From assembly GCF_009914755.1 (NCBI RefSeq), contig NC_060925.1: a stretch of 64,000 nucleotides of DNA; one strand, 5' to 3'. Under the pieces are notes generated by a model. It was given only the letters and a program-made list of their open reading frames with translations, was not told the origin of the DNA and made no database searches. Numbering within the stretch: position 1 is the first letter of the stretch; every line of letters starts with the position of its first letter. Shown here in pieces: positions 3,797 to 64,000 of the stretch. The translations under genes were made by a program, and so were the position numbers. This stretch comes from the human T2T-CHM13v2.0 reference genome, Homo sapiens.

Positions 3797-4218
3797 TTGT
3801 TTACTAGGGATGCCATACAAAGTACCACAGACTGGCCAGCTTAAACAGAAATCCATTTTCTCATGATTCTAGAGGGTGAAAGTCTCAGATGAGGGTGTCA
3901 CTGCGTTGATATCTTCTGAGGTCTCTTTCTTTGGCTTGCAGATGGCTATCTTCTGCTGTCTTACACTGTCTTCCTTCTGTGTGTGTCTGTGCCCTGATCT
4001 CTCTTCTTATAAGGACGCCAGTCATTATAAGGACGCCAGTCATTTGGATTCTTCTTATAAGGACACCAGTCATTTGGATTAGGGTTTACCTATATGACCT
4101 CATTTTACCATATTCACCTTTTTAAGGGCCTTCTCTCCAAATATAATCACATTCTGAGGTCCTTGGAGTTAGAATTTCAACATATGAATTTTGAGGAAAT
4201 GAAATTTAGCCCATAATA
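3797..4218 (-). mobile_element. MLT1-family MaLR LTR
   Basis: GCCATACAAAGTACCACAGACTGG, CTTATAAGGACACCAGTCATTTGGATTAGGG, TTCAACATATGAATTTTG. Confidence 0.8.
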
Positions 4219-5289: not shown

Positions 5290-5658
5290 CAACCGAACTG
5301 TGTCCTCCAAAATTCACATGTTGAAATCCTAACTCCCAATGTGACTGTACTTGGAGACAAGATCTTTAAGGAGATCATTAAGGTTAAATGAAGTCCTAAG
5401 GTTGGAGCCCTGATCCAGTAGGATTCATGTCCTTATAAGAAGATACACCAGAACACTCGCTCTGTCCACCTGCACAGAGAAAGGCCACGTGAGCACACAG
5501 CAAGAAGGCAGTCGTCTGCAAGCCAGGAAGAGAGAAACAGAATTTGCTGGTACCTTCATCTTGTGCTTCCAGTCTCCAGAACAGTGAGAGAATACATTTC
5601 TGTTGCTTAAGCCACTGCTGTTTACGGTATTTTTTATGGCAGCTCTAGCAGACTAATC
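5290..5658 (+). mobile_element. MLT1A/B-like MaLR LTR
   Basis: TGTGTCCTCCAAAATTCACATGTTGAAATCCTAA ... TATGGCAGCTCTAGCAGACTAAT. Confidence 0.8.
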
Positions 5659-6857: not shown

Positions 6858-8841
6858 CCACCACTCTTATAATCGATGAAGATTCAAGCATGGCTTGCAG
6901 GGCCCTGTCTGATTAGGTCCTGCCGTCCTTCCCAGCTGCACCTGTGTTACCCATCCCCACCCATCTGTGCTTCAGCCACTCTGGTTCTTCATCATGGCCT
7001 GCTCCTCACCTTCACTTGGAAAGGCAGTTATTCTTTATACCATTTTACAGATAAGGACACTGAGCTTCAAAGTGACAAAAGGACTTACCCCAGGGCACAC
7101 AACCAGTAAGAGGCAGAGTGTGTTCTGGAATCTTTATTGAATGAATGAATGCTTGCATGCATGAATGAACAAGTGAATGGTACAGTAAACAAAGGCCCTA
7201 GGTCAGGAGTACTTAGGTGGCTCAGTGGAGATGCATTGAAGGACATGGTCACCTGTTAGGACCTGCCAGGGCTCTCTTCGGCAGTGTGTGCCTTACTATG
7301 TGTGAGGAGGTGCTGTCTTGCTTTCAGTGTGTAAATATCATGCCTTGATGGAGAAACTGCAGCAGAGAGGCCCCGCTGCCCCAGCACATCTGTCACAGCC
7401 CACACAACACCTCCAGAGTGAGAGCAACAAATTCAACGAACTGCCAAGTTGTCTGTACCACCTGGGTGCAAGCAGGAGTGAGTGTGAATGTGATAGTTTC
7501 TGTTCCTTTTCTTTTTATAGGTTGGGAGCTGGGAGAGGTGAATGATTTTCAAGGTGGCTATGAGCCTTTTGCTCTTTTATATTGCCAGGCAGAATCAGGG
7601 CTAGGATGTGACAGGCTGTTCCCCCAATCCCAGGCCGCCGGGATGAGGCTGGGGGACAGAGAGTTCCCAGCTCCTAGCTCACAGTCAGTGGGGTGGAGTG
7701 GGGGACCTTCTCTGATAGCCCACACTTCTGTCAGTGGGAAGTTTTGGATTTGTTCTAAGGGGCAGAAGCAGATATTCCTTCCTATGTGGGGCTATTGTGC
7801 AAAGTTTGGGGGCAAAGCCGGGTGGAGAAATGTGGGTATTTAGAATAATGGCTGCCTTTTCAAATGAAAACTCTTTAAACATTTGTTTCATATCTATGTA
7901 GAACTGGGGCTAAGACTGTAGTTACAAGGGGGATATGAGGAAGGTGCTGATGGCAGTGCTCTGCCTCTCTGTCCCTTGGGTCCCAGGCAGCCCACTCAAC
8001 ACAACAGAAATCCACAATCCTTAGGAGCTACTCAAAAGCCCCCTCCTAGAAGTTATCATCTATACTAGTAAAGCATGCCCTTTGCTGGGCTAACTCGAGA
8101 ACCCAGCAGGCCTCTCAACTAGTGTCGTGGTCTCCTGGGAAGAGTTTTGAAAAATACAAGGGCTCATAGTGAGGTGCCCTCAACCCACACATCTGAAGGA
8201 TTGCCATTAACTACCTGTTTGTAATGGCTGCTGAGGGCCTGGGGCAGCACAGGTGGTGGAGGAATGGACCGGAACCTGACTACTGTCCTTAGAGAGCTTG
8301 TGGCTCTGAAACATACCGGGCTGGCTTTTGCACACAGCCTGGTCTTCTTCACCATTCTTCCCCAGCAGAGTCGTCGTGGGGCTGGCCTCAGATGTGGAGG
8401 TTTTGTCCCACTCCTGCGTCCTCTGTTCCCTTCGGCTCCAACCCCACCCTTGTCCCCTTTCTGCTCTCAGGTGTCTATCAGCTGACCCTTGATAGCAGGT
8501 TGATGCTCTTATTTTGCCCAGAGCATTTCTTTAAGGCAATAAGTTGTTTTGGAGAACCAGGTGAGTGAAATTTCAGGCCATAACACTGTTATGAAGATAA
8601 TAAGGCTGCTTTTCAACACCTTTTAACTTCTACCAAGTTAACACATTCTCAAGTTGTAAGAACATCTGCTGTAAAGCATTTTTCTGCCCATTTTATAGTT
8701 TGCCCTTCACAATAGTCTGTGAAGTAGGAAGGACATTATTCTTAATCCCATTTTACAGATATACGGACACTAAGCTCCTGAGTGACAGAAGGACTTATCC
8801 TAGGGCACACTACCAGTAAGAGGCAGAAAGAGGTTGACTAC

Positions 8842-12780: not shown

Positions 12781-14861
12781 TACTGGTATTAAAGTTTAAA
12801 TAAAAGAATTTTTTTTAACTGTGAAAAAGAGAGAGACAGAGAGAGACCAAATCTCTTCTGGGAGAAGCAGAGGGTGTGCAGGCCTTTCATCTTTTTGTAT
12901 ATCCAGAATCAGTATTGGATCTGGTATATAGTAGGTAACTATTGAATGTGGATGGTGAGATGAGTGAAGAGGAACAAGAGACTCGTTTATGTGTAGCTTT
13001 ACAAGTCCAACGCATACTCTTTTTATAATTATTTGAAAGACTGGGCAATGGGGAATATTGTACATGTCACATGAGTGGAAAGATACAGGCCCAGAGGGCC
13101 CTAATTTGTGGTGATGTCTTATTGCTGACTGGCAAAGGGGTCACTGCTAAAGCACACATCCCCAGGGACACTGGGGGTATTACGGGCAAGAAGATGCTAC
13201 TGGGTAATTGCACTGATTACTAATGTTGCTAACATTTCTCTTGCTTAATAATCCACTTTTAATATTACCCCTGGCAGTTCTTCGTTCCCATAACACAACA
13301 ATAATTAAATTTGTGTTCAGTTGGTTGTAAATGCACCCAGAGGTCTTAAGCAATGGGTGAATTATACCCATTTAAGTTAGAACATAATGCTAGCATTCAG
13401 CAACCTCAGGAATAAATACTAATTACTAAAGTTCCTTTAAGTTTCACTGTATCACATTAGTTTCCATTTTCATTTTCAAGACAACGTACAGGACAAATGA
13501 CAGGTTTTTATCTCAATATTACAGCAGTCACTCCTCCAGTCCCATAATCCTGAGCTATAGGTTTCCAGAATGGCTTATTTAAAACAGGACCAGGAAATGT
13601 GGCTGTTTTTAAAGGGCCACCTTGGTCTGACATTCCAGAATTTTTTTTTTTTTTTTAGGAAATGAGGAGAAAAAGAGGAAATGCGGCACAGGGCAAGGGC
13701 TAGGAAAGGTGCTTTGCCTGCTCTGTTTGCGAGGGTGCCTTCTATGGTAGATGGCCATGTGGCTGGAGTTTTGTCCCTGTTTTACACATGGCCCCAGGGG
13801 TGTGAAGAAGCCTGCTGGTGTCAAGCCTTTTTAAAAATTTATTTCCAGGGTTGGGATTCTGTTCCTTCTTTAAAGCACTCATTATTTCTCCCTTTTAACA
13901 TGGAAGATGGAGAAAGGTCTCTCCTTTGTGGTCTTGGGTCTTCACAATGCCCAGTCTGTTCCTGGCTCTGTTATTGAACTTCAAGCAAACATGAGTACTA
14001 AACCACACCTGGCCCCGTTCCAGCAGGCTCTGCCGTTTCGTGCCCCCGACCCTGGTTCATGAGGCTCCCTCCCACCTCTTTTTTTTCCCTTGGATAATTT
14101 CTGTTGTCATACGACCTCCCCCAGACAGGCTCCTAATATCCCCCTGCCCACTCCAGCATGGGAGAGCATGTCTGGGTTTGCGGTGCTTACCCTGCACCGT
14201 TACTCAGTTATCTCTGCACTTCCTGACTGCCTGTGCTCCTGGAACTGGACTGGAAGAAGCTCCCATCACGACTCTCTTTTGGGGGCTGTTCCCTGACTGG
14301 GGTCTTACTTAATGTAACCCAGTGGTGAGAGTTGTTCTTATATTATGCACTGGGTCCATTTTTAAGGGACAGAAAGGGAAAAGGTTTTTCCAAGTGACCA
14401 AGGCTGAGAGGCAGTGGCTAATGGTGCATTAGCTGGAGCTGCTCCCAGGCAGAGCAACAGAACCTGGCAGTGGAGGAGCTGACGGAGTGGAGGGCAGGCT
14501 GGCTCAGCACGCCGGGCCTGTCAAATGTTCTCTGGCAGTACCCACAGATGGCACTAGAGCCTTGGGGATCAGACCACCCCTGGGCACTTCAGGGTTGAGG
14601 GAGCCAGGAGACGAGACTGGAAGGAGGTAGGCAGTGAGTCACCGTCTCTGTGGCTGATCAAAGACTCAAAACTGTACAAAAGGCCTGTCTGGTAATGCTA
14701 GGGCAGCAGAGACCACCACCCGTTGGTGACCTTTTCTGATGGTAAAAGCAAAGGGTGAGATGAAATTGGTGTTTTTACCTGAAAAGGCTGTTAAAGGTTA
14801 AAATGACAAAATAAAATTCAGAGGGTTTGGAGGATTTGGTGTTTACGATTCCTCAAAGTGG

Positions 14862-15271: not shown

Positions 15272-15813
15272 AACGTATAGAAAATGTGTTTAAAAAAGGA
15301 ACTATACAGAGGCTAAAAGCAACCAGGACTAAAAATACTAGTTAACAATGGTTAACAAGCAGAGATTCCAGTCTTTGAGCTACAGTGCCATGAAAGGATC
15401 AGAGAAGTTGGTTTTTCCTCTCCCTTCCTCTGTACATTTTTATTTTTATTTTAGCTAATTAAAGTGTGCATCGTCTGAGGAGTATGTACTCCATTTTCTT
15501 TTTTTTTTCTTCCTTCCAGTCTTTCTTTTAAGTAAGCGCTTTTTCAAGCTCATTGTAGCTACAAAGTCAATAAATTGGTCTTTGTTATTTTTACCTGAAA
15601 AGGCTGTTAAAGGTTAAAATGACAAACTCAAATTCAAAGGGATTGGAGGATTTGGTGTTTATGATTTCTCAGAACAACAATCTAGAGACCACCAGGGTGG
15701 GTTTCAGCTGCTCGGAGCCCCAGTTAATGACCCCCTCAGTGTCACAGTGATTTGCTTAGGGTACTTGGGCATCCCCATGGGCCTGGGGAGTATTCGAGGT
15801 TGGAATCATTAGA

Positions 15814-35070: not shown

Positions 35071-35663
35071 AGGGAAGACAGAGAGGAGACCACAAATATG
35101 GAACTTGATAATCTTTTCCTCTACCTCCCTTTATCCATCACTATGAAAATCTAACTAAGAGGGGGACACAGGTCATAATAAATGGACCACTTTCCAGAAC
35201 TTGGCACCACCACCATCTGCCTGGCTTGGATGTGTGTTTACCATCTCACGCCAGTTTGGTTCTCGATCTATATTTCCTGCCGGTGTCAGACTTCTAGGAA
35301 ATTGCCAGTCACCTCTAATGCCACTTTCATTTTTTCCCTTTTCTTTCCCAGGTCAGGTAATAACATTCTCCAAGGAACTAAGCGGAGTGGCTGTCCTCAT
35401 TTCTCCCCTGACCTGCAGGCTGGCTGGCTGGTTGCCTTGCTTCTGGGAGATGGCCAGGCAGCCTGTTGCTCCCTGTGCCCCTCACCGACCAGGCAGCTCA
35501 CTCCCTTTGTGGCAGCCTCATGTCAAAACCCATCAGAATAAGAGACTATTAATGAGGATGGGAAGAGACAGAGAAAAGAGGGAAACACCACAGTAAGATA
35601 AAAACAGATCAATAGTGAAGCTAAACAGAGCAAGAGGTTCTGAAAGCAATTCAGGAGCTGTTA

Positions 35664-37863: not shown

Positions 37864-40617
37864 TCAACGGAGCTCAAGGTGTGGGTGTGGGGACTTGGCA
37901 TCATCTTGGATTTCCCTTCCACAACTGTTGTTAGACTTATCAGACAACATACAATTTCATGGGATCTGAGAACTAAAGGTCTGTGTTCATGGTCTAGCTC
38001 CACCAGTTACCTATTTATTTGACTTTAAGTAAATCAGTTGGGCGTCAGTTTTCTTATCAGTAAAATGGGGATAATAAAAGTCTCCCCCTTGAAGGGCAAA
38101 GATGTGTTAATGCAGGTAGTGATTGGTTACTCAGGCAATGATTACAGATGCATGGGCCAAAATAAATCACTGCAGACTCCACCTTTCAAAAGAATGAGAG
38201 GCATCTGAGCAAAGCTTTCTGTCATCTTTACAGTAGCCATTAAGGAATGCCCAAACAAGCTCGGCATTAGCAAGAAGATGAATTATCTATTCCTTGTACA
38301 AAATACATCCTGATTGGACTAAACAATCAAGTAGCCATGTTTTACAGTTCAGTTTAAGTTTAAGGAGAGGGCAGGGGAAGTAAATTGCAGCTCATCTTTC
38401 AGAGACAACAGCCCAATTTGTAGAACAATATCTAATTAGCTGAAAGAGGAGCTTAAATCCTGTGTCTTGAAGAGCTTAGCTTCAGGGCAAATTTTAATGC
38501 TGAGCAGGCAAGCCAAGAAGCAGAAAGCCCACCGGAGGAGCTTTTCTGAACTGCAGGAGCTGCTAGAGCAAGCTAAAGGCAGAGCTTGCTGTGTGGGAAA
38601 GGGTGGTTTGGGTGCTCTGTAAATAGTATGATCTTCTGGGTTGATGAAGAGCATGCTGCGATTGATCTAGTTCTGCATCCTTGAACTGTTGCAGTCAGGA
38701 AGAGAGGCTGGGGAGGGACCGCACGTGTCAGTTACTGCAGTATACCCTAGTGGCAGAACCGGTGCACTACAGGTGTGACACAGGGCCCGCTGGTGGGTCA
38801 GAGTAAGTGACAGCACCTACCCAAGGATGGCAACATAGCAACCTCACCGAAAACCCTGAGCACCTAAGACCCCATCATAGATCACCAGTGAAGCCTCCTG
38901 TGTCAGGAAGAGGTGGTTAGAGTCGGTTTATGGAAGGCCCCCCTGGAGATGTGTTAACTGCCCCCGCACCAGGACTGCCCTTCAACTTGCTGCCACACAC
39001 CCGTCGAGGGCGCACTGGCCTAACGTAGTTTAGAACAAAGGCATTGCCTACTGCAGGCATGGTTATACCAGGGAATGACAATAAATTTCTATAGAACCTA
39101 TCCTTTACCAAGTGTTTTTATTTCCATTTAATTCTTGCAAGAAACTTGAGAGGACAGCAGATTGGTATAGATATACTTATTTTACAGAGAAGGAAACTGC
39201 ACTCAGAAAGATTACATGACTCAGATTGCTGGAACTCATATTTTCAGATGGCTTAAGTGCTGTTTGCACTCTACTAAAGCAGGAAATATAATGCATGATT
39301 GAATTTACTGAAGATAGAAATCTATGCATACAGCAAAGGATTAATTAATACCTGCATTTATCTTACAAGCAAAAAAACCCCAAAGATTAAAGATCTCAAA
39401 AATTTCTATGTTCAAATCAAATATCCATACCCTCTCAAACTGATTTCCTTAATAGCTGCAGAAAAGCTAACTGTCATCTGCAGAGTGTCCTAGAACTCTT
39501 CATAGTTCCTGATCCCACCTACCCCTAGAGGCTACAGTTACATTTCAGGAGACAGGTGTGAGCTGTCTCTGTCTCCTTCCCTGCTGATTTGGGAGCACTG
39601 CTATTATCTCCTCATTCTTGACCTGGCCTCTGGAACAACCAGCCTGTCTGCTTTTCTTTCTCCCCTTTCATCTCACTGTTTGAGTTTCTCATTTTAGAAG
39701 ATCAGCAATTAGTGCCCTTGGTCTTTAGCTTACTCCTAAGGTATGCACTAATAGCCCCTTTTCCTGAAGAAAGGTTTCTTCATGCAATAAACTCAGCTTC
39801 TTGAAGGAGCCAGAACCCCAAATTTCTTTCCAATATCCAATGTATCCCCAACAAAACATCTCCCCACAAATCTCAAAATGACAGTCTCATACAAATACAC
39901 ATATAAATCTAAACATCAGAATGGGGAAACAAACGATCTCATGCAGGCTTCTTCATATTGATAATGTAGATTGATTTAATATTTATATTACAGATACTTT
40001 TTAAAGGCTCAAACATATTAGTTGCTTTAAAGCTAGACCTACAGACAAATACAGTAAACTGAGATGACTTAGACAAGGGGAGTTTTGAATACCTGAATGG
40101 CTATCATATAAAATAGTGATTCATTTTTTAAAGTTAGAAAAATAAGAATAAAATTATCTTAAGAAAAAAGTGTTTTCTAAGGGGTGCCAAACACTGGATG
40201 GGATAAACGTCCCAGATTACACCCTGGGAGAGGAAGGACCATGCTTTCTTCCTTCCAGGCCGGCAATGAGCTGGTTGGTGGGGTGGCGGGGGGCGGGTAC
40301 TCCCCAGATGTGCATGAGGCAATGATGCATCGTTGCTGGGTGCGCTTGCCTTCCCTTTGACAAATTGCAAGGCCATTTGGTTGTTTATAGATTCCATTTG
40401 CTGTGATTTAGTCTGTGGCATTAATGTAAAGACAACAAGCATTTTGCTCACACAGACTATCAAGAGCAGCAACCTGGGATTTTCACATCTTCGGAACTTG
40501 GAGAAGACCTCACATTTACAGCAAAACCATTCCTTTTCAACCTGCTTCAGCCTGCAACTCTAGTCCTTGTCCAAAATATTATTCCTTTTTTTGCAGACAA
40601 GAGAAGGCAGAGGCTCA

Positions 40618-50700: not shown

Positions 50701-53229
50701 TGAAATGGACTTATGTTATGTGGCAGAAACACAACAAGGGAAGACATCTTGATCAAAGGAGGTTTTTGAGGGTTTGTGAGTGCCAGTTCTTTTCTTTTCT
50801 TCTCTTTTTTAGTTTTATTATTACTTTTTGACATCTTAACTCTTTTCCAGGCCATCAGGTAGGCATCTTGCTTACAATGAACCTCTTATGGTCCACTTGG
50901 GACAAGGTGAGGGTTTATCCGTGGATAAAGGCAACTTTGGGCCAAACTTTAAGCTCTCTTGTTCCATCAGAGAAGGCATAGAAAACACTCAGAATGATGA
51001 GCTGAGATCAACCCATCCTAAGAGTAGGATACTGCTAAGTGGGAAAGTCAGGTACTGTCAATGAAGTTGGAAAGGATGCTAATTGCTAAAAAGAAATTAG
51101 CCTCTAAATCCATTAGCCCTGGCTTGCGATCACCTGGGAGGCTTCCAGTGTTTCTCAGACTTCTTGCTCAGCAAGAGTAATTCATGTCTGTGGGGTCCTG
51201 ACTGGCAGCACTCCAGTCTTGCATATAAGTGAAGATACACTGCTCTTCAATTTTGCTTTTCCTTATTGGTAATGTCCCCAATCCCACCTCACCAAGTTTG
51301 TAAGCTGATACCCTTGTATTCTTTTCCTCCTTAATAAAATTTGCTCTTGGGCAGGGGTAGAAAACTTTGGGGTAGAGAGGTGGCACAGGCAACGAGAGCT
51401 CATTAATATTACCATGCAAATGACTATGTAGCCTAGTGGAATTTATTCAGGGAAATTTGCATTGAGGTGGCTGACAGAGCCTGAAATTAGAGGGAATTTG
51501 GGCATCACATCATACTCTTGAAGGTTATACCTCTTTGCCTGTCTTATCCCTACAAGGGGTATTAAAAATCGCCTTAGGCTTTATTTTATCAGAGACCCCT
51601 CTTCTGTGCTCTGCAGCTGAGATTTGACTATTCAATTTAACCAGTGTCTATTATGTCTGGTATGTGCCAGGCTTTGTGCAAGATACTTTCACATGCATTA
51701 TTTCTGCCCAAGAATCTTTCATTCTGCAACCAGTCATTTCAGTGGGTTCTGATAAATCTCCAAGACAAAGCCAGCAGAGTTTGGTATACATGAGTGACTT
51801 ACATTTAAATTTGAGCTTTCCAGTAAAACTGCGAAAGCTTCCAAACACAGACATATCTTTACCATGTACCACAGAAGTAATAATACAAACTCTACATGGA
51901 ACACCTCAGTCAGTAGCTACACTCACCGCATGGGAAATTGGGCTCTTCTGTTTTCCCCTTTCTGAGCTGGTATTGGTCATGCCCCAAGAGCCTGGTGTCA
52001 ACTGGAGTCTTGTAAACACAAACAAACAACCTAAATACATCCTGATAGTCCCCTGCACTGTCCACCAAATGAAGCCATTATTCTGCCTCCTCTCCAGATT
52101 TCCATGTGTGTTGTTAATCTTCTGCTTATTTGATCCTACTGAGGCCCCAGGTGGATTTGGGATCCCAGATCCAAAAAACTGTACACTGCTTGGCGCAGCT
52201 GCATCTAAGAGAGGGCAGTGAGGGGCACAGAAGCTGGTTTGCTTTTACAGCCCAGGTGGGTCTGGAGTGAGGCACAGCTGTAAGATGCCACAGAGACTTG
52301 AGGCACATTGTCATACTGCTCACAACTGCTAGCTGTGGCATCATCAGTGTGGGAATTAAAAGCCCATACTACACTGAGCAAACATTGAAACCCATGCATT
52401 TTGGGGATAAAATGATTAATTTAGACCTAATAAATATGCAAATTGGGAGCTCAGTTTAAGTGTCTGTCATCTGTGTCCTTTTTATAGAAAAGAAATTCTT
52501 AATTCAATGGAAAGCTCCAACCCGTGGGTCTTTAAGTGGTAGCGTGGAAAAGAGGACCATGGAGCCCTCTTTAATTAACCTGCGAATGTGCAGGGAAGGG
52601 CTTAACAAGAAGAGGGTAGCACCTTAGTTCTGAGATCAGACACCTTTGCAAGAGCATGGAGGGGGAGCATAATTGACTCCAGCCCCATAAAAGAGATCAA
52701 GTGTCTTCTAAGTTCCACTTGGTAAAGATACATCTTGGATTCATGTCTGTTTGTGTACCCAAGGTTTATTTTTATTTTTTAATTAAAACACTTGTTTCTC
52801 TGATTAATGTGCTCATTTAAGATACTTTGTGATGTATTGAAAAGTGTAAAAAAAGAAGGGAGAAGAGGACTCGTTCACAATCTCCGCACTCTATAGAACC
52901 ACTGGGGATATTTTGTCATATCTGATCAGTGTCTTGCTTTGTCATTTAGAACGAGTGCAGTGGGGGAGACACCTGGTGGGGCTGGGGGACTTTCTCTCAC
53001 CTCTCTGGGGATGGAGGAAGAGGCTCTGAGGCATGGACGGGAATCCAGTCATTCTGGTGCTCTGACATGGCAGGCAGGATGTGGCTGAGTATATGGGACA
53101 TGCTCAGGTTTGCCTCACATGTATGCACCCACACCCCCATAATGTGGGCCAGGGAGAGAATTCAAAGTCGGGGCTGGGCAGCCTTACATTATGGACTGTA
53201 GAGAGGCACAGTGGGAGGTGGTAGAGAGA

Positions 53230-53760
53230 AACATTAGTAACACAGACCCCAGAGCTGAAACATCTGGCGTCAAATTCCAGCTCCCTTACTTAAGAGCTAT
53301 GGGATCTCGGGTGAGTTACCTCACCTCTCTGTGGCCCAATTTCCTCATTTGTAAAAAATAGAGATGATAGTGCATACCACATAGGCTGTTGTGAGGATTA
53401 CATTAGGTAATACATGTAATGCAGTTAAACAGTACTTGGCAAGTAACTCTCAAAAGTCAGATATTAGGTTATTTCCTGTTATAGAGATTAGGAATTTTTT
53501 TTATCCTTTAGCAGCGTTTTTCAAGTATCTTCTGCTGACTTAAGGAGGGAAGGCAGCCGGAACAGCTGCATTTAGAAGTAGAAGACCTGGGTTCAAGGTC
53601 TGACTCAGCTATTTACTAGCCATATAAGTCTTTGGTTTCTGTGCCCCTTGGTTTCATCACCTGTGGAATGGGGATCATAGGCCTTCCTGACCAGTTGTTA
53701 TATAAGAACTGAGTGAGATCATAGGAATGCAAAAGTCCTTTGTGTATGGAAAAGAGCTGC
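53230..53760 (+). mobile_element. Two MIR copies
   Basis: CCTCTCTGTGGCCCAATTTCCTCATTTGTAAAA and GACCTGGGTTCAAGGTCTGACTC. Confidence 0.7.
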
Positions 53761-53897
53761 AGGTTTAATGTTGAGGGTTTACTACTGCTGCTTTTACTAA
53801 GTGAGTCTCTGATTACAGGTAGCAGAGGAAGGAGGAAGAGAAAGATAAACTTTGCTGGAAAACCACTTGCAGAAAACCTGAACTGGAAGGAACCTGA

Positions 53898-54210
53898 TTT
53901 TTTAAATTTTTATTTATTTTTTTTTTTTTGAGACGGAGTCTCACTTTTTCACCCAGGCTGGAGTACAGTGGCACGATCTCAGCTCACTGCAACCTCTGCT
54001 TCCTAGGTTCAAGTGATTCTCTTGCCTCAGCCTCCTGAGTAGCTGGGATTACAGGCACACACCACCATGCCCAACTAATTTTTGTATTTTCAGTAGAGAC
54101 AGGGTTTTATCATGTTGGACAGGCTGGTCTCAAACTCCTGACCTCAGGTAATCTGCCCATCTAGGCCCCCGAAGTGCTGGGATTATAGGTGTGAGTCACC
54201 GCACCCAGCC
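53898..54210 (-). mobile_element. AluSx-like
   Basis: Reverse dimer; GAACCTGAT TSD. Confidence 0.92.
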
Positions 54211-54436
54211 AGAACCTGATGTCTTTACTTGGTGCATTTAATTGGTCCGGGTGGATCAGGGAGTTGTACTGCTGGTTCCTGCGGTTACCTTGTTAGTGAG
54301 AGGTTTCCTGGTAGGGGCTTGGACAGGGGAAAAGAAGGAGGAGGCAACTGAGCTTTTTTGATAAACTGCTCCCAGGGCAAGTCTCAGCAGAGGCTGCTGA
54401 TGAGCCAAACATCAGGAAGTGGAGAAGAAGGCATCA

Positions 54437-54733
<297 letters not shown>

Positions 54734-55335
54734 TTACTGCACCAATAAGCAGAGAGGAGAGCTCCCATGTGAGATTTAGGCCAGCTCCTATCTCAGGAAT
54801 GCACATTGGGATAAATTTAGGTACCTGCATTATTGAATCTAGAAGTCTTCAGATTGCACTGTACTTGCTTGAGAGCAGAGAAAGAGCTGAGGAAGTGGGA
54901 TCTAAGGCCTCCTTACTTCTATCAAGCAGACTAACTCTGCTGAAATGTATTCTGTGCTTTTGGTTTCTGCATATGATTTCCCTTTAAAAAGAGGTTGCTT
55001 CACTAACAAAAACTTGAAAATCAGTGTTCTGGATGAACTGTTTCAACTGATGAAATAAAACAAAAATTTGTTGTTTCTTTACTGTAGGCTACACAGATAT
55101 CACCTTTATAATGCTTATCAAGAGGCATAAAAGCCTATTGAATTTGGTATCCAGCTCATGTTTGCTCAGCCCTGTTGTTGAAAAACTATTCCAATATCAT
55201 GTACTTGGGAGTTTCCAATGTGCTTTGTGTCATTGTATTGGAAGCACCAGCACAACCCAGTGAAGTTGCAGGGGTAGAGACCTTCATTAGCTAGAGAAGA
55301 AAGCAAGCCTTGAGGAGGTTTAGTCCTTTGCCTCA

Positions 55336-55758
<423 letters not shown>

Positions 55759-56308
55759 TCAGGTATGGGTATCTGTTGCCCACCTCTTTGGTCTCAGGAT
55801 TGCTCACATGCTGACCCCTGCTCTGGCTTGGAAAGGAGCATAAAGGGTGCTCCTGGGTCAGATGATAATCATTCAGTGCCACGATCATTCTTGCAGCTAC
55901 TTCCCCTTCCCTTACAGGGCCTCTAGGCTTGGGTGTGACATCTTCCACACTGACCTTCTATGCCTGAGATCTGGACCCTGATAAACTCTCATGTCTGCTT
56001 GTTCACTCGTGAACTTACGTTTCCACATATTACCTATGTCTACTTTCTCCTATTCATCACTCTACTCAGCAGCTCTTTCCTAGATATCTAGCCTTTTAAT
56101 ATCCATCAGACTTTTCTGGGGCAGATGCATTCCGAGTACAGACCTCTCTTGACCTGGTTCTTCTGCTGTCACCCAGGGTGAGAGCAGAAAACAGACATGT
56201 CTCTGCTGGCCAAAAGTTGCAGCTTAGTTTCACTGAATTTGGGCTGTAGTCAGTCCAAATAAGAACAGCTCATAGCTGCCCTGTCCAAAGCCTGTAAGTG
56301 ATAATCTA

Positions 56309-56563
<255 letters not shown>

Positions 56564-56609
56564 CTACTCAGTTTAGGAAAGATCTACCAAATCCAAAGGT
56601 ATTTCACAT

Positions 56610-57410
56610 GGATTTACTACTAGAGAATTTTGGAAAAAAATCTTTCATAGGTTATCTAGCTTAGTATCTTACTCTTTGCAAGGATTCCCCTCTCATCTCA
56701 TATCATAATTGAAAAAAAGTGTTCTTTATGTGCAGGTCAAATTGTCTTCTCTATAACTTCTATTCGTGTCTCTGGAGTTATTAAGGATAAATCTAGTCTT
56801 TTGTGTACATGACCCCTTCCTCTCCACCACCCTTCCTAATCAAGTTCTCTCTCCACTAGACTGAGAAAATTCAGCCCCCACTTCCCATCACATTTATGTG
56901 ACAATTTTAAAACCTTCACAGTCCTATCTACTTTTCTCTGAACACGTAACAGTTTATCAATGTCCCTGCTAAAGTCCAAAACTCAGAGAACTGAGAATAA
57001 TGGAGAGGTACTGACCAATGAAATAAACAGGGTCAGTCTGTGCTTGTGCCACTTATATTAATTAGTAAGGTTTTGGGAATGCCATGTGATATTGTTATCA
57101 CATGCCAAGATTATTGCTAATCAAAGATCTTCTTTGTAACCACTCCCCCTACCTCTCAATCCAATTTTGTTAGTTGATTTTTTATACCCATGGACAGAGC
57201 TTTGCATTTATTTCTATTGCATTTTGCCTCGTTGATTGAGTTTTGGGCCACTGTTTCAGTTGATTAAAATATTTTTGAACTTGGATTCTATTGATCACAA
57301 TTTTGTTTTATACACAAATTTGGTAAGCATGTCTTCTCTGAATTCATTCAAGCTGTTGATAAAACTGTTCATTAGTTCAGGGCCAACTCCTCTGTTGGGC
57401 AATTAGAATA
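56610..57410 (-). mobile_element. L3/CR1-like ancient LINE fragment
   Basis: CTTTGCATTTATTTCTATTGCATTTT and CACAAATTTGGTAAGCATG-type motifs. Confidence 0.5.
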
Positions 57411-59088
57411 CTTGGAAATTATTTAATATTTAACAGTTTACTAGGCACATTTTCAGAATAGGTAGGGCTTTGAGATTTCAAGTTTCTTGTGGTCTAAAGG
57501 CATACAAACAAGTTAAAATTCAAACTAATGCTTAAGCTTTGGAAGAGCATGTATAAGGATATCATCTTTTTAATGTCCCCCTTTGCACATCATGCCATTG
57601 ATTAATGCTCCAGCCATACCAAACTATGGTAGTTCTTCAGACTTCTTACACTCTCACATCTCTGCAAATGCCCACAGTCTGCTCTTTTTCTTGAAATTCC
57701 CTTTCTTCTCCTTTTCTTCTTTCACTTTATCTAAGACTTTTCTTCTTTCTTTCCCTCCACACCTTGACCCTATTCATAGTAGCCCACTGGACATGGCCCA
57801 TGGTGTTCTGTGCATGTCTATAGCATACACTGCTCACATCAAGTTGTAACTATTTACTTCTCTGCAACATCATTAGAAGTGAGTTCCATAAAGATGAGAG
57901 CTCAATTTTTGTTTCTGAATCCTTATAGCCTTATAGAGTGTGTGGCACATGGGAGGGCATCAAAAGTATTTGTGGAATGAATGGAAGTTCATTGCTCTGT
58001 TAGAGCTGTGTGTTTAGTGTCTGTGAGCAGATGTGTCTGACTGCCTTCAGGGAAGCTTTGACAGAAGAGATAGGGTTGAAACCACGACTTGAAGGATGGG
58101 TTTTCTAGGCAGGCAAATGGGGGAGTTTCCTGGTGAAAGAAATAGCATGTGCAAATGCATGGAGGCTTGAGAAAGCATGGTGATAATTAAAAAATGCGGG
58201 ATCATGTTATGAAAGGAGGGGTGACAGGAATTGAGATGGATTGTGCATGCTCACAGAGGGGTTAGGACATACCCATAGTAATGCTATCCCTTCTTCATGG
58301 AGGGTCATTCATTCAGCTACAGTCCCAGCTACCTCCAAATATGACCTTTCATGTATTTTTCCATGTTAACTAAGGACTAAGTGATAAGTGGGGTTTTCTG
58401 ATGCCTTGCTGAAATACAAATGTACTAGCAGGTTTGCCAATGAAAACAAAGACATAAAGTAGTTTCGATAAAACTTATTCTTGGTGAATCTGTGCTGCTA
58501 TATGGTAATCACTAATTCCTTTTCCAAGTTGTTTAATTGTCTGTTTTAGTTTTTACCTTCCTAAGCTTTGACAATAAGTTTACTTCTTTGCAGCTCACAG
58601 AATTAGCTTTCTCTGTCATTTTTGAAAACCAAGACATCTGCCTGCCTTCTGTCTTCTGGTATCTTTGTTCTCTGGATTCCTGAATATAACCCAAAACAAT
58701 TCTGTGATCACATGTTTGATGAAGGCAGGGAAATAACTTCCCTAAGCCTAGAGACTTGGAGGACTCAACTCTATTTTGCTTTGGGCTTCTCTGTTCTGTT
58801 CAACTTCAAATGGTGTAAGGTGAACAAGCATGATACAGAAGACAGTGAACTTCAAGATTTCGTGTTAGTTAAACCTGTTGGGCTGGATATGAATAGAGAA
58901 GACAAAAACACGGAAGAGTTTAGCAGTCCTGAATCTTTTGTCACCTGTTAGCCTGTACTCTCTGTTTCAAACTTGGTCCTATATCTTCAGTGTTTTTCTT
59001 GCTCTGCGAATATTTAGAAAAGCCTGCTTTCTTGTTTGTAGCATTTTGGGGGCAAGTCTTAGCTCTGTTCTGAGTTTCATCTTCCTAG

Positions 59089-59559
<471 letters not shown>

Positions 59560-59611
59560 TAGGAACTTTTCTAATCTGTCCTTCAGATTGAAAAAATGTT
59601 TTGTTTATTCA

Positions 59612-59824
<213 letters not shown>

Positions 59825-61135
59825 TTACAGATAAGAGGAGCTGCAGGATAGAAATGCAGGGAATGATCTCAGAAGTTCCACTCATGGTGCAAGACTGCTG
59901 CTGCACTCTACAAAACAAAGAAGTGAGCAGAAACCTCTTCCCTTTCTCCTCTTCTGGTTCCATCAGCCTCTTCCATTTCTCCCTGCCTCCCTTCTCTCAA
60001 GTATCCAGTTCTCCCCCTGTCGCCCCCAGCTCTTCCTTTTAATTAATTCAATAACTTCTTATGTGCAGAATACTGTGCCAGATACTAAAGAGGATTTCAA
60101 GATATGGCTGGAATGAATTTTCAACATTTAAATCTAGATGGAGCAACCAAGAACCCACAGAAATTGTTATAATTTTTTAGTTAATGAGATAATCATACTT
60201 CCCAGGCTATTTGCACTTTTATAAATGTAAGGGTGTGCCTCATGGAAAGATCTCTGTTGAAGAGCTTCAGGAAGTGTGGTGGCAACTCCATAGGGGCAGG
60301 AGTATCCCCAGGACAGAGAACATAGAAGATCCACCCATGGAATGACTGCGTGGGCTCAGTCAGGTTGCCTCAAAAGTCATATCTGATTATTGGATGATTG
60401 CTTCACTGCTCACAAGTCTCACTCAGGACTGAGTCCTTGGTATTCTTTTTGTTGCATTAAGAGTCAAGAGGATTCTTCCAGGCTTAGGTAGGTCAAAAGG
60501 GCCTGTTAGAGGAAAAGATTGTGCTTGTCATAGGATCATCTTCCTAGTCTTACTTGCCCATGCTCTAAGTCTTTGCTTTATTACTGTGCTTCTCTTCCAT
60601 CAGGTTATAATTTATCACAAGTGGATGTTATTACAACAGTTTAGTTTTCAGCTCAACCCAAGTGTCATAAAATTTACTTTTGAGAACCAAGATCTGCTGT
60701 GGATCTTGCCCTATTCTCTAATTGAAAGTATTTTTTTCACTTGCCTATGTCCTTTATCACAAAGAAACAACCTGCACAATATTTTCATGTCAAAATTGGA
60801 ATTGTATCCATAATCTGCATGTTCAAAGAGTTCTTCAAATGCAGCCCTTAGACTACACTTGGCTTGATCTATCTGAGACATGCATGATACCACGAGACAA
60901 ACATGACACCCTGAAGGAGCACTCACTTCCAAAAGTTGTAAGATCATAGACCTCAACGTAAAACCACAACAAACATACAACAGCAAAATAAGACATTCTG
61001 GGGCAATCTAGTTATTGGAAGTTGCTAAAATAGCTCTGCCTAGACTTAAAGGAGGGCAGTTTGGATGGGCATACCATTTGGGTTGGTGTACCAAATATCT
61101 GCTTTAGAGATACTAGCTGCTCATGACCCAAGGAT

Positions 61136-61299
61136 TTTTTTTTCTTTTGAGAGACAAGGTCTTGCTCTGTCACTCAGGCTGGCATGCAGTGGCATGATCA
61201 TGGCTCACTGTAGCCTTGGACTCCTGGATTCAAGCGATCCTTCTGCCTCAGCCTCCCTGGTAGCTGAGACTACAGGTGCATGCATCCATGCCTGGCTAA
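61136..61299 (-). mobile_element. Alu right-arm monomer (FRAM or AluJ fragment)
   Basis: Single arm with T tail. Confidence 0.8.
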
Positions 61300-62017
61300 A
61301 GAAATGAGTTTTTGATTGAAGTTGCTGGTCTCTTTTATCTTGGGGATAGGAGGCTCTTGAAATACATTTTATTGTCCTCAATGGGAAAAAGGCTAATTTC
61401 TTTAATATGAATTTCTTGGTTCAAGAAGGTGGGATAGAGGCTTCTTTTGGTGTATTGGACCTCACTTCTGGCCAACACTTGTTGATATTTTAATGGTCAC
61501 AGGTAATTTAATAGATAGGGCAAAACTGAATGGCTGTGTTATCTGTTGTCATAAGCCTGGAAGGAGACTAGGGAGGATCAGAATATCCTGCGCTGTCTTT
61601 AGAAGAATAATTTTTGTGTTTGTGAAGGAATATTTCTTGGCCCATTGCCTTAGAGATGCTGTTTCTGAGCTTCCGAGAACATCTACGAAAGCAGTAAGGA
61701 ATTCTAAAGTATATTTCCCTCATTTGGGAAATACCATTCTCCAGTGAAATTAAGCAACTGTAGAAAATCCAGGTGTTCTCCTAATGAGGCAAGCTGGATG
61801 TTTTCCCACGTGCTGTGGGAATGATGGCTTAACTAGGAGGTTTGGTCTAGGGTATGGGAATAGAACACTTTGGCTGTGCCTGCTAGTGAGTTCTGCAGCG
61901 AATCTTTGCATGTTCTGCCTGGTGTACTTGCTGAGGGGCCAGAGACGGAGGAGCAGTGGTGCTAGCAAAGGAGCCTTCTCTTCAGCCCCATTGCGTGGGC
62001 TTGTTTTCAAGAGGGAG

Positions 62018-62274
62018 GCCATGGGATTTGGACTACCTTTCCTCACTTTCCCATATTGCAAGCCAGTCTCTCCCTTGCACCTCCCTTCCTCTGGTCATTA
62101 TGTAGGAGCTGATGGAGGATGCAGAAGACATCTGGATCTGACTAGGGGGCCTGTCAGAGACATGAGCTACACGGTGCCCCTGCAGGCAGCCCAGGATGCA
62201 CACGGAGCCACATCACCTTCACTGCTTTGGTCCCGGGTGAGGGAGTTATGGCCACTTTGGTGCCTTCTTTCTCC
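62018..62274 (+). pseudogene. Inverted, degenerate duplicate of the TNR exon at 54457-54589 with both intronic flanks (pseudoexon 62106-62236)
   Basis: Hand alignment to reverse complement of 54421-54678 gives ~80% identity; keeps AG (62104-62105) and GTGAG (62237-62241); reads ELMEDAEDIWI* (CGA>TGA at 62139-62141), then a frameshifted YTVPLQAAQD. Confidence 0.93.
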
Positions 62275-62733
62275 CTGGAGCACAAAGCAAGAGCAAAGGC
62301 AGCTTCTTGGTGGTTTCTGGCTATATCTGATGATGAATTTCATGACCCCATTCCATTACTGGAATAACAACCCTTTTCTTCTCGAGGTGAAATTTTCTCA
62401 TCTGAGTCTTTTACAAAATCAGATGAATGATTCAGATATCTGTTTTAGAATTCACTTCCATTATATGTCTGAAAGGGCACTGTTTATGTTGGAAGTTCCA
62501 TGAAAATTCCTAACCTAAACCAGCAAGACTTCTAGAGGGTGACTCTCTAAACGTTTAGTATTAGGGAGGAATATTGGGGGAGAGAAATTGCAAATTGCCC
62601 TGCAAGACACAGTGAGTTGGAGGAGCACCCCGAAATGGAGCCTTAGCCTCCAGAACCTTTCTACAAGCCCGAACAACTTCACCCAGATCTTCAGCCAGGG
62701 TTCTGACTTGACACAGCAGGGAGACATTCCCAC

Positions 62734-62880
62734 CTGTGTGCACAAGAGTACAGATGCGCTCGCTTTCCTCCCTGCCCCGCACGCTGTTGAGGCTGATTTC
62801 GTATTCGGTAGCTGGGTTCAGTCTGGTGATGGTGAATTCTGTCACAGTGTTGGGCACCACTGAGCTGTCTAGTCGTCCCA
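62734..62880 (-). CDS. TNR: TNR exon (~14), second half of FNIII repeat: [49 protein letters not shown]
   Basis: 147 nt, AG/GT flanks, frame continuous with neighbours, FNIII L-x-P-x-T-x-Y motif. Confidence 0.96.
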
Positions 62881-63764
62881 CTGGAGAAGAGAAGAATCTA
62901 CAGTTAAAATTCAGCAGCCCTTTCATCCAAGCAGCCCATGGTACAGTCTATGTCAATAAAGCACAGATGGGTGTGGGACTCCGCACTCAGTGGGGAGGGA
63001 TGATACATGGTTCATGGGCTGGGAATGTTGGAGTGTGAAGAGGCTTTGCACACTGGTCTCACTCCTTCATTTTATGGGCTCCTTGGAGCAAAGAAAAATG
63101 ACCTACCTATTAAGTGGTTTTCTAACAAGCTGGTCTTCTCTAAGACAATGACATTAAGGCAGTGTAGAGGGCACCGATGCAAGGAGCAGTCCCCACAGTC
63201 CAGAGACAGTGTAGTCTGGAATGCTGTCCTGTGTCCTCACTGGAAGTGAGTGTGCCCTCCACTTCCTTAAAAATGCCACATGTACCAGCAAGAACTGGCA
63301 GGATGCAGGTGAGGTCTGGGCCAGTTTCCTCTGACTCATAACTTGTCTGGAGTGGCTGAAATGGGACCACATCACTGTGCTTCCCTCCAAGGCTCCATCT
63401 GGCTTTGCTGGGTCTTTAGCCATCCCTCTGGATCCTAGTCTTGAACTTCATTCTTGTAGGAATATTCATGTGACCCAAGCTCTTGGCAGATTCTTTTGGG
63501 GCTCTTTTTTTCTCAAGACACTGCCTAGATAATGGTGATCAGTTACCTCTGCTAGTGAAGGGCCTGCTCTCTGGGTGAATGTAATCAAGCCTTTCTCAAG
63601 AGGCATTGGTGAGTGTGGGGTTTCTTGGCTGCTCACCAGCCCACTCTCATTCTGATGCAGCATGCCACAGAGAAGAGGAAAAACGCAGGCAGGAGTGGAT
63701 GTTCTGCGGGATATGCTAGTTCTCCCATAATCTTCACCCAAATCCTAGTATCTTTGAGAAATCA

Positions 63765-63998
<234 letters not shown>

Positions 63999-64000
63999 AA

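What the first reader, a model, noticed from the sequence alone, without database searches (positions are those of the whole stretch)
62018..62274. TNR intron carries an inverted copy of one of its own downstream exons, including both splice sites
Seen: 62018-62274 (+) aligns to the reverse complement of 54421-54678. It covers the ~89 nt acceptor flank with its polypyrimidine tract, the whole 133 nt exon and ~36 nt of donor flank. Hand counts: ~84% upstream flank, ~77% exon, ~89% downstream flank. It does not resemble any interspersed repeat I recognise. Because it lies inside the gene in opposite orientation, the pre-mRNA contains the antisense first and the real exon ~7.3 kb later. Inference: a ~255 bp intramolecular duplex could form co-transcriptionally and mask the branch point region, acceptor and donor. 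Several differences (real G vs copy A, real T vs copy C) become G:U pairs. The flanks, expected to drift in both copies, match at least as well as the exon, which hints at selection on pairing, although the counts are small.
Basis: partly seen in the sequence, partly recalled or inferred. Interest (0 to 1): 0.9.

Follow-up and report, generated by a model that had tools for sequence, protein, structure and literature searches.

The report
Dead inverted exon copy in TNR intron
An intron of the human tenascin-R gene holds a decayed, back-to-front copy of one of the gene's own later exons; it could pair with that exon in the RNA, but the sequence shows no sign that such pairing has been kept by selection.

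Summary
Window 62019-62274 (+) is the reverse complement of 54677-54421: 81.9% identity over 259 columns, E 3e-60. These are the only two copies in the T2T genome. The copy covers 88 nt of acceptor flank, the whole 133-nt exon and 36 nt of donor flank. That exon encodes the second half of the last FN3 domain of TNR.

The copy is a dead pseudo-exon, with one in-frame stop and two 1-nt deletions.

In silico the two arms form a 224-bp duplex of -393.9 kcal/mol on the TNR transcript. The hints of selection for pairing do not hold:
- Of 29 transitions, 12 give G:U on the TNR strand and 17 give A·C (p = 0.46).
- The opposite strand pairs better (-419.3 kcal/mol).
- The better match of the flanks disappears once CpG-decay columns are set aside (p = 0.27).

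Both RefSeq mRNAs include the exon. The arms lie 7.3 kb and four introns apart.

Most likely this is a neutrally decaying relic of a small inverted DNA duplication, physically like an inverted Alu pair. Cross-species and RNA data could not be reached.

The parts
62019..62105 (+). Copy of the 88-nt acceptor flank of the real exon (polypyrimidine tract, AG kept). It reads antisense in the TNR pre-mRNA.
   Evidence: Alignment: 75 of 87 ungapped columns identical, 1 gap column.
62106..62236 (+). Pseudo-exon: 131-nt decayed copy of the 133-nt exon, with an in-frame TGA and two 1-nt deletions.
   Evidence: 103 of 131 identical, 2 gap columns; the reading passes through all three frames, with a stop in frame 1. 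No Pfam match.
62237..62274 (+). Copy of the 36-nt donor flank (GTGAGGGAG kept).
   Evidence: 34 of 36 ungapped columns identical, 2 gap columns.
54421..54677 (-). Source arm: the real TNR exon 54457-54589 with 88 nt of upstream and 36 nt of downstream intron. The exon is phase 0 and encodes [10 protein letters not shown]...TAFTT, the second half of the last FN3 domain.
   Evidence: RefSeq annotation. (translation and phase); fn3 profile 49-82 at E 0.076, with the preceding exon matching fn3 1-41 at E 9e-9 and the following exon starting Fibrinogen_C.
55567..59802 (-). The three exons (59683-59802, 56383-56526, 55567-55697; 395 nt together) and their introns that would sit in the loop if the arms paired.
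   Evidence: Annotation; skipping these 395 nt shifts the frame; skipping them plus the 133-nt exon (528 nt) stays in frame and removes 176 aa.

Best explanation
A stretch of about 257 bp of TNR genomic DNA (exon plus both intron flanks) was copied once, in inverted orientation, into an intron 7.3 kb upstream. This was a DNA-level event: a templated insertion or template switch during replication or break repair, not retroposition and not a mobile element. The copy never had a coding role and has decayed freely since then, for tens of millions of years.

In the pre-mRNA the pair is physically equivalent to an inverted Alu pair, a long imperfect duplex of roughly 82% Watson-Crick matches. I infer that it forms in only a minority of transcripts. 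The arms are 7.3 kb apart and separated by three exons, and the intron that carries the antisense arm can be removed before the real exon is transcribed. Where it does form, the expected by-products are promiscuous A-to-I editing of both arms, some back-splicing of the three looped exons, and some skipping. I take these as tolerated noise, not a selected regulatory device.

Shown here: the duplication, its uniqueness, its decay, the lack of strand-specific wobble bias, and the in-silico stability. Inferred: the mechanism of origin, the age, the low occupancy of the duplex, and the neutrality.
For: - Only two copies in the genome, with sharp ends, and single-copy sequence on both sides of the copy.
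- The copy carries intron flanks, so it derives from unspliced genomic sequence.
- It is a dead pseudo-exon: a stop and two frameshifts. Exon differences fall 7/11/10 on codon positions 1/2/3.
- There is no bias toward pairing on the TNR strand: 12 G:U against 17 A·C transitions, p = 0.46. The duplex is weaker on the TNR strand (-393.9 kcal/mol) than on the other strand (-419.3 kcal/mol).
- The flank-versus-exon contrast is not significant once CpG-candidate columns are removed (p = 0.27).
- Both RefSeq mRNAs contain all eleven window exons, so the target exon is annotated as constitutive.
- Skipping the 133-nt exon alone gives a stop after 14 codons.
- Passages read in Athanasiadis 2004 (PMC526178): editing of inverted Alu pairs peaks at 300-400 nt spacing and subsides with distance.
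- Passages read in Lev-Maor 2008 (PMC2533698): for 880 of 953 edited intronic Alus the nearest inverted partner lies in the same intron, at 682 bp on average.
- Passages read in Osia 2021 (PMC8421209): inverted templated insertions exist as germline variants in humans.
- Literature searches for a TNR circRNA or TNR editing found nothing relevant.
Against: - The duplex is thermodynamically very strong and has no rival partner within 11 kb. All four inverted repeats of 30 nt or more in 53000-64000 belong to this pair, and the best rival tile reaches only -149.1 kcal/mol. Appreciable pairing therefore cannot be excluded.
- If the real flanks drift neutrally, the flank divergence (14/123) implies about 6% per lineage. 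The non-CpG exon divergence (19/115), which should arise mostly in the copy, is then higher than expected. The other is constraint on the real exon's flanks only, plus sampling noise. The counts are too small to decide.
- AG and GT are both kept in the copy.
- No cross-species alignment, RNA-seq, editing table or proximity-ligation data could be consulted. Supplementary tables were closed, including the PCCR catalogue of Kalmykova 2021 and any circRNA or editing lists.
Confidence: 0.6

Rival explanations
1. The duplex forms in a sizeable fraction of TNR pre-mRNAs and has measurable molecular effects, without having been selected for them. The effects would be ADAR hyper-editing of the exon and the intronic arm, a 395-nt three-exon circRNA (back-splice from the donor at 55567 to the acceptor at 59802), out-of-frame skipping products removed by NMD, or an in-frame 528-nt skip.
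For: - Duplex of 224 bp, -393.9 kcal/mol, about 30 sd beyond shuffles, and no competing partner nearby.
- The longest uninterrupted helix is 24 bp including G:U.
- Complementary sequences, including inserted non-repetitive ones, drive back-splicing in a reporter (figure legend read in PMC5052039).
- Exons looped out by stable structures show lower inclusion (passage in PMC10691357).
- The four-exon skip is in frame.
Against: - One arm is itself an exon with its splice sites, not a flanking intron.
- The spacing of 7.3 kb across four introns is far beyond the spacings at which inverted Alus are mostly edited.
- No TNR circRNA or TNR editing report was found in the searchable library.
- RefSeq lists no skipping isoform.
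Confidence: 0.25
2. One reading: the antisense copy is a selected, built-in antisense regulator that masks the branch point, acceptor and donor of the 133-nt exon. It would tune TNR output through NMD, or produce an isoform lacking the last two FN3 domains.
For: - The flanks match better than the exon (raw Fisher p = 0.042).
- The splice-site cores lie inside helices. GTGAGGGAG is fully paired and the AG is paired.
- The duplex is strong.
Against: - No wobble bias on the TNR strand (12 against 17), and the other strand pairs better.
- The flank-versus-exon contrast vanishes after the CpG correction (p = 0.27).
- Five gap openings disturb the helix.
- The exon is annotated as constitutive in both mRNAs.
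- Skipping it alone is out of frame.
Confidence: 0.07
3. The copy is used as an exon of an unannotated plus-strand (antisense to TNR) non-coding transcript, which would explain the retained AG and GT and the well-kept flanks.
For: On the plus strand the copy keeps a polypyrimidine tract, AG and GTGAGG.
Against: - No plus-strand gene or transcript is annotated over 35573-64000. The lncRNA LOC105371623 ends at 35572.
- Keeping four bases at about 15% divergence is expected by chance roughly half the time (my arithmetic, no call).
- No Rfam family in 53000-64000.
Confidence: 0.03
4. The match is a chance similarity, an interspersed repeat, paralogy among FN3 exons, or an assembly artefact.
For: None found.
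Against: - E 3e-60.
- Two copies only in the genome.
- The match extends into intron on both sides, and no other FN3 exon of TNR or any other gene is hit.
- 18% divergence is not what a duplicated-assembly error looks like.
Confidence: 0.01

Closest known systems
Inverted Alu pairs (IRAlus) in pre-mRNA
   Same: Two arms of about 260-300 nt, roughly 80-85% complementary, in one transcript. They are capable of a long imperfect duplex, which is the known substrate for promiscuous ADAR editing and a known influence on splicing of nearby exons (passages in PMC526178, and PMC2533698).
   Different: It is not a transposon: there are only two copies in the genome. One arm is a constitutive coding exon with its splice sites. 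The spacing of 7.3 kb across four introns is much larger than the typical effective spacing (682 bp on average within an intron).
Intronic complementary sequences that promote back-splicing (circRNA biogenesis), including non-repetitive ones; the mouse Sry inverted repeats are the classic case (Sry recalled, no call)
   Same: Reverse-complementary arms bracket a set of internal exons, here three exons of 395 nt in total. Engineered non-repetitive complementary sequences suffice in a reporter (figure legend in PMC5052039).
   Different: The downstream arm is not in the intron just after the last looped exon. It starts 889 nt further on and includes the next exon. No TNR circRNA was found in print.
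Editing-site complementary sequences (ECS) of ADAR recoding targets such as GRIA2 Q/R (recalled); a distant intronic element for Gabra-3 appears only in the search listing (PMC3479170)
   Same: An intronic sequence complementary to a coding exon of a brain-expressed gene.
   Different: Known ECS are short, close to the exon (usually in the adjacent intron), conserved, and direct site-selective editing. Here the complement is the whole exon, is 7.3 kb upstream, and no editing is known.
Conserved long-range pre-mRNA structures (PCCRs, ATE1, Dscam docking/selector sites)
   Same: Long-range intramolecular complementarity within the 10-kb range used for PCCRs, overlapping splice sites (passages in PMC8052449).
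   Different: Those structures are short (tens of nt, -15 to -35 kcal/mol) and are defined by conservation and covariation. This one is 257 nt and owes its complementarity to recent common descent. TNR is not mentioned in that paper's main text. Its method excludes exons apart from 10 nt at their edges.
Inverted templated insertions from template switching (MMBIR/FoSTeS)
   Same: An inverted copy of a nearby template inserted without hallmarks of retroposition. Such events exist as germline variants shared among people (PMC8421209).
   Different: The events catalogued there are short and templated within 100 bp. This one is 257 bp and 7.3 kb from its template. Junction microhomology cannot be read without the empty site of an outgroup.
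Plant miRNA genes born by inverted duplication of target-gene segments (Allen et al. 2004; recalled, no call)
   Same: An inverted duplicate of part of a gene creates RNA complementary to that gene.
   Different: There the two arms are adjacent and form a hairpin that is diced into small RNAs acting in trans. Here a single antisense arm sits in an intron of the target gene itself.

Membership tests
Interspersed repeat / transposable element | Many dispersed copies in the genome | tested here: not met
   Only the two arms are found at E <= 10 with either arm as query. The flanks are single-copy. Caveat: the tool skips very common words and closed regions.
Processed (retroposed) pseudogene fragment | Lacks introns; derived from spliced mRNA | tested here: not met
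   The copy carries 88 nt and 36 nt of the flanking introns, collinear with the exon.
Duplicated exon for alternative or mutually exclusive splicing | Same orientation as the gene and an intact reading frame | tested here: not met
   The copy is inverted. It has a TGA stop and two 1-nt deletions.
Small inverted templated insertion (template switching, MMBIR-type) | Inverted copy of a nearby template on the same chromosome | tested here: met
   Inverted, 7341 nt between the arms, inside the same gene.
Small inverted templated insertion (template switching, MMBIR-type) | Microhomology at both junctions | not testable with these tools
   This needs the pre-insertion (empty) site from a species lacking the copy. 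No vertebrate genome other than this reference is reachable.
Complementary-sequence pair driving exon circularisation | Reverse-complementary arms in the same pre-mRNA bracketing the circularised exons | tested here: met
   The arms at 62019-62274 and 54421-54677 bracket three exons (annotation).
Complementary-sequence pair driving exon circularisation | Both arms lie in the introns immediately flanking the circularised exons | tested here: not met
   The upstream arm is in the flanking intron. The downstream arm spans the next exon and both its splice sites.
Complementary-sequence pair driving exon circularisation | An observed back-splice junction | not testable with these tools
   No RNA data are available. 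Literature searches found no TNR circRNA; the 'circTNR' hits seen in passages and abstracts were circTNRC18 or circTNRC6B, and the other listed hits were not opened.
ADAR editing-site complementary sequence | Intronic sequence complementary to the edited exon | tested here: met
ADAR editing-site complementary sequence | Documented A-to-I editing in the exon | not testable with these tools
   There is no editing database here. The searches 'tenascin-R' + 'A-to-I' (1 unrelated paper) and 'TNR' + 'recoding' + 'ADAR' (0 papers) were blank. Supplementary tables are closed.
Selected long-range RNA structure (PCCR-type) | Substitutions biased to keep pairing on the transcribed strand (G:U rather than A·C; compensatory changes) | tested here: not met
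   12 G:U against 17 A·C among 29 transitions, p = 0.46. The duplex is -393.9 kcal/mol on the TNR strand and -419.3 kcal/mol on the other. True covariation needs orthologues and was not testable.
Selected long-range RNA structure (PCCR-type) | Conservation of both arms across species | not testable with these tools
   No other vertebrate genomes are reachable. Orthologous proteins could not be reached either: the longest exon-coded stretch is 166 aa, and the length rule of the word search excludes the 1358-aa protein.

The most novel reading that the evidence does not exclude
The inverted pseudo-exon is a lineage-specific, built-in antisense element. In TNR-expressing brain cells it pairs with the last FN3 half-exon. 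By masking that exon's branch point, acceptor and donor while looping out the three preceding exons, it switches a fraction of transcripts to one of three outcomes: an in-frame isoform lacking the last two FN3 domains (528 nt, 176 aa), NMD substrates, or a 395-nt circRNA. If so, an exon-derived antisense copy, rather than a transposon or a short conserved box, would serve as a splicing or dosage regulator of its parent exon.
Probability: 0.07. Interest if true: 0.7.

Novelty: new member of a known kind. Interest (0 to 1): 0.3.

Why it matters
If the pair is inert, it is one more small inverted duplication. It is useful mainly as a clean, non-repeat example of how template-switch events seed long intramolecular complements inside genes.

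If the duplex forms, it would be a natural test case for three questions. How far apart can two arms of about 260 nt lie and still pair? Can a constitutive coding exon become an ADAR or back-splicing substrate through a copy of itself? Can a gene acquire a self-targeting antisense element in one mutational step?

TNR is a brain extracellular-matrix gene, so a lineage-specific isoform or dosage effect would be of interest. Nothing found here shows one.

Tried and rejected
- **Chance, repeat or paralogy.** Rejected. In one search, a self-comparison of the window after N-masking the 21 listed repeats, this pair is the strongest of 4 hits.
- **Known RNA family.** None in 53000-64000 on either strand at gathering score.
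- **Coding potential of the copy.** Rejected (no Pfam hit).
- **Polarising the differences with orthologues.**
  - The PDB search with the 44-aa exon gave only fibronectin at E 0.077 and an unrelated chain. No tenascin-R chain matched.
  - I did not run the search for homologous proteins. Its length rule (0.55-1.75 times the query) cannot reach the 1358-aa protein from any single exon; the longest coding exon is 499 nt. Joined sequences may not be typed, and reading through stops by reference is barred.
  - Dating therefore rests on divergence alone. The Jukes-Cantor distances are my own arithmetic: 0.124 for the flanks and 0.187 for the non-CpG exon columns and for all columns.
  - Per lineage this is about 0.06 if both arms drift, and up to 0.12-0.19 if the real arm is frozen. 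With recalled human-lineage neutral rates that is very roughly 40 to 130 million years.
- **Flanks kept better than the exon.** Examined and found explicable by CpG decay. A residual excess of exon divergence remains unexplained, but it is within sampling error.
- **Literature.**
  - No TNR circRNA or editing report. The search for inverted exon duplication and splicing gave clinical and SMA papers only (listing).
  - Papers and what I saw of them: PMC8052449 (passages), PMC10691357 (passages), PMC5052039 (one figure legend), PMC8421209 (abstract and passages), PMC526178 (passages), PMC2533698 (passages), PMC12830984 (one passage). All others were seen as search listings only.
- **Recalled, from no call.** Neutral rates, Pol II speed, the NMD rule, Sry, GRIA2, Allen 2004, and the label 'Alu' for the three masked repeats.

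Full report
**Observation**

- An ungapped repeat scan of 53000-64000 returns four inverted blocks, all collinear between 54448-54677 and 62019-62245 and 77-93% complementary. It returns no other inverted repeat of 30 nt or more.
- Gapped blastn joins them into one alignment, 62019-62274 (+) against 54677-54421: 81.85% over 259 columns, 42 mismatches, 5 gap openings, E 3e-60. This is the only non-self hit of 61500-62800 in the window.
- Across the whole T2T reference, each arm finds only itself and the other arm. The 418 and 459 bases on either side of the copy are single-copy.
- After N-masking the 21 listed repeats, the pair is the strongest of four self-similarities in the 64-kb window.
- The copy is absent from the masked-repeat table. 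That table covers only 5,680 of 64,000 bases, so the two-copy result is the real argument that this is not an interspersed repeat.
- By part, leaving out gap columns: acceptor flank 75/87, exon 103/131, donor flank 34/36.

**What the two arms are**

TNR runs on the minus strand.
- The real exon 54457-54589 is 133 nt, phase 0, and encodes [44 protein letters not shown].
- The preceding exon matches Pfam fn3 positions 1-41 (E 9e-9). This exon matches fn3 positions 49-82 (E 0.076, below the cut-off on its own but in register). The next exon starts Fibrinogen_C at position 2. The exon is therefore the second half of the last FN3 domain before the fibrinogen globe.
- The copy lies in the 2.9-kb intron between exons 62734-62880 and 59683-59802, in the opposite orientation.
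- The exon part of the copy is 131 nt. It matches no Pfam family.
- AG and GTGAGGGAG are kept.
- No plus-strand transcript is annotated over the copy. No Rfam family is found in 53000-64000.

**Can it pair?**

In silico, yes.
- On the TNR strand the two 257-nt arms cofold into 224 intermolecular pairs at -393.9 kcal/mol, against -82.2 and -77.4 kcal/mol for the arms folded alone.
- One hundred dinucleotide shuffles of the exon arm give a mean of -139.2 (sd 8.3, minimum -163.6). The best of 75 other 257-nt tiles of the same strand between 53000 and 64000 gives -149.1.
- The longest uninterrupted helix is 16 bp with Watson-Crick pairs only, or 24 bp with G:U allowed.
- The duplex would cover the branch-point region, the AG and the GT of the 133-nt exon, and would loop out three exons.

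**Is there a sign of selection for pairing?**

1. **Wobble pairs.**
   - Of 42 substitutions, 29 are transitions. Twelve become G:U on the TNR transcript and 17 become A·C (binomial p = 0.46).
   - Consistently, the opposite strand, which is not the TNR transcript, gives the more stable duplex at -419.3 kcal/mol.
   - Selection on the TNR pre-mRNA predicts the reverse.
2. **Flanks better kept than the exon.**
   - The raw counts are 28/131 against 14/123, Fisher p = 0.042.
   - Seven dinucleotide columns in the exon show the CG/TG/CA pattern expected when an ancestral CpG decays independently in the two copies. The flanks show none.
   - Setting aside the 16 exon columns concerned leaves 19/115 against 14/123, p = 0.27.

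Exon differences fall 7, 11 and 10 on codon positions 1, 2 and 3, and there are 5 gap openings per 42 substitutions. This is the picture of unconstrained decay.

One residue remains. If the real exon is conserved, most of the 16.5% non-CpG exon divergence arose in the copy alone, whereas the 11.4% flank divergence is shared by two lineages. This fits best if the real exon's own flanks are constrained, which is ordinary for splice-site neighbourhoods, or if it is sampling noise. It could also reflect constraint on both arms. The counts cannot separate these.

**Consequences if it paired**

- Both RefSeq mRNAs contain all eleven exons of the window. They differ only in one exon outside it.
- Skipping the 133-nt exon alone gives a stop 14 codons later.
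- Skipping the three looped exons (395 nt) shifts the frame.
- Skipping all four exons (528 nt) stays in frame and removes 176 residues, that is the last two FN3 domains.
- A back-splice of the looped exons would give a 395-nt circle.

None of these products is annotated. I found no paper reporting a TNR circRNA or TNR editing:
- 'tenascin-R' + 'circRNA': 4 papers, seen as listing only; by title and abstract start none is about a TNR circle.
- 'circTNR': 19 papers. The abstract of the top hit concerns circTNRC18, and the one paper I opened names circTNRC6B. The other listed hits were not opened.
- 'tenascin-R' + 'A-to-I': 1 unrelated paper.
- 'TNR' + 'recoding' + 'ADAR': 0 papers.

Supplementary tables were closed and may hold entries I could not see.

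**How likely is pairing in vivo?**

The closest physical analogue is an inverted Alu pair.
- In the passages I read, editing of Alu pairs peaks at 300-400 nt spacing and subsides with distance (PMC526178).
- For 880 of 953 edited intronic Alus the nearest inverted partner is in the same intron, at 682 bp on average. Cross-intron cases average 1,993 bp (PMC2533698).
- Here the arms are 7.3 kb apart and separated by three exons. The intron holding the antisense arm can be spliced out while the polymerase covers the remaining 7.4 kb. This timing argument rests on recalled elongation and splicing rates, not on a call.
- I therefore infer low occupancy. The absence of any rival partner within 11 kb argues the other way.

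**Origin and age**

- The copy carries intron on both sides of the exon, stands alone between single-copy sequence, is inverted, and lies 7.3 kb from its source.
- This points to a DNA-level templated insertion or template switch. Inverted templated insertions are documented as germline variants in people, though those catalogued are short and templated within 100 bp (PMC8421209).
- Junction microhomology cannot be read without an empty site from another species.
- The Jukes-Cantor distances (my arithmetic from the counts) are 0.124 for the flanks and 0.187 for the non-CpG exon columns. With recalled neutral rates, the event falls very roughly 40 to 130 million years ago. I could not narrow this, because no other vertebrate genome or full-length orthologue was reachable (see Tried and rejected).

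**Comparison with known systems, and verdict**

- It works like an inverted-repeat pair of the Alu type, and like the complementary sequences that promote back-splicing. Geometrically it resembles an editing-site complementary sequence.
- It is not a member of the transposon, retro-pseudogene or duplicated-alternative-exon classes, because defining features were tested and not met.
- It fails the one test of selected pairing that a single genome allows.
- I file it as a new member of a known kind: a small inverted intragenic duplication that creates a long intramolecular complement. The unusual detail is that one arm is a constitutive coding exon with both splice sites.
- Confidence in each reading:

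| Reading | Confidence |
|---|---|
| Neutrally decaying relic, with at most occasional, unselected pairing | 0.6 |
| Appreciable but unselected molecular effects | 0.25 |
| Selected self-antisense regulator | 0.07 |

- Interest is modest (0.3). The feature is real, rare in this window and cheap to test, but nothing found here lifts it above an inert relic.

Noticed in passing
window 15582-15671 and 14766-14855: A 90-bp direct duplication, 91% identical and 816 bp apart. One copy lies at the very end of the TNR 3' UTR exon and the other just beyond the gene. These are the only two copies in the genome.
   Followed up: partly
window 8727-8827 and 7018-7117: A direct repeat of about 100 bp at 84% identity, outside the listed masked repeats. 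Not identified.
   Followed up: no
window 5303-5443 and 4050-4197: An inverted repeat of about 150 bp at 72% identity, outside the listed masked repeats. Possibly an old unmasked interspersed repeat.
   Followed up: no
window 53890-54217, 59194-59517, 61126-61286: Three masked repeats that look like Alu elements (label recalled). All are in the same orientation as each other (direct families D1-D3). They therefore offer no inverted Alu partner to one another within the 11 kb that holds the exon/pseudo-exon pair.
   Followed up: partly
window exons 59683-59802, 56383-56526, 55567-55697, 54457-54589: Together these four exons are 528 nt and encode exactly the last two FN3 domains. Skipping all four keeps the frame (176 aa fewer), whereas skipping the 133-nt exon alone or the first three alone does not.
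   Followed up: yes
whole window: The masked-repeat table lists only 21 stretches totalling 5,680 of 64,000 bases. That is far less than usual for human sequence, so absence from this table is weak evidence that a stretch is not repeat-derived.
   Followed up: no
window 38596-38890: RefSeq lists a 'silencer' functional element (HepG2 tiled region, Ctcf state) in the 16.7-kb intron just downstream of the real exon.
   Followed up: no
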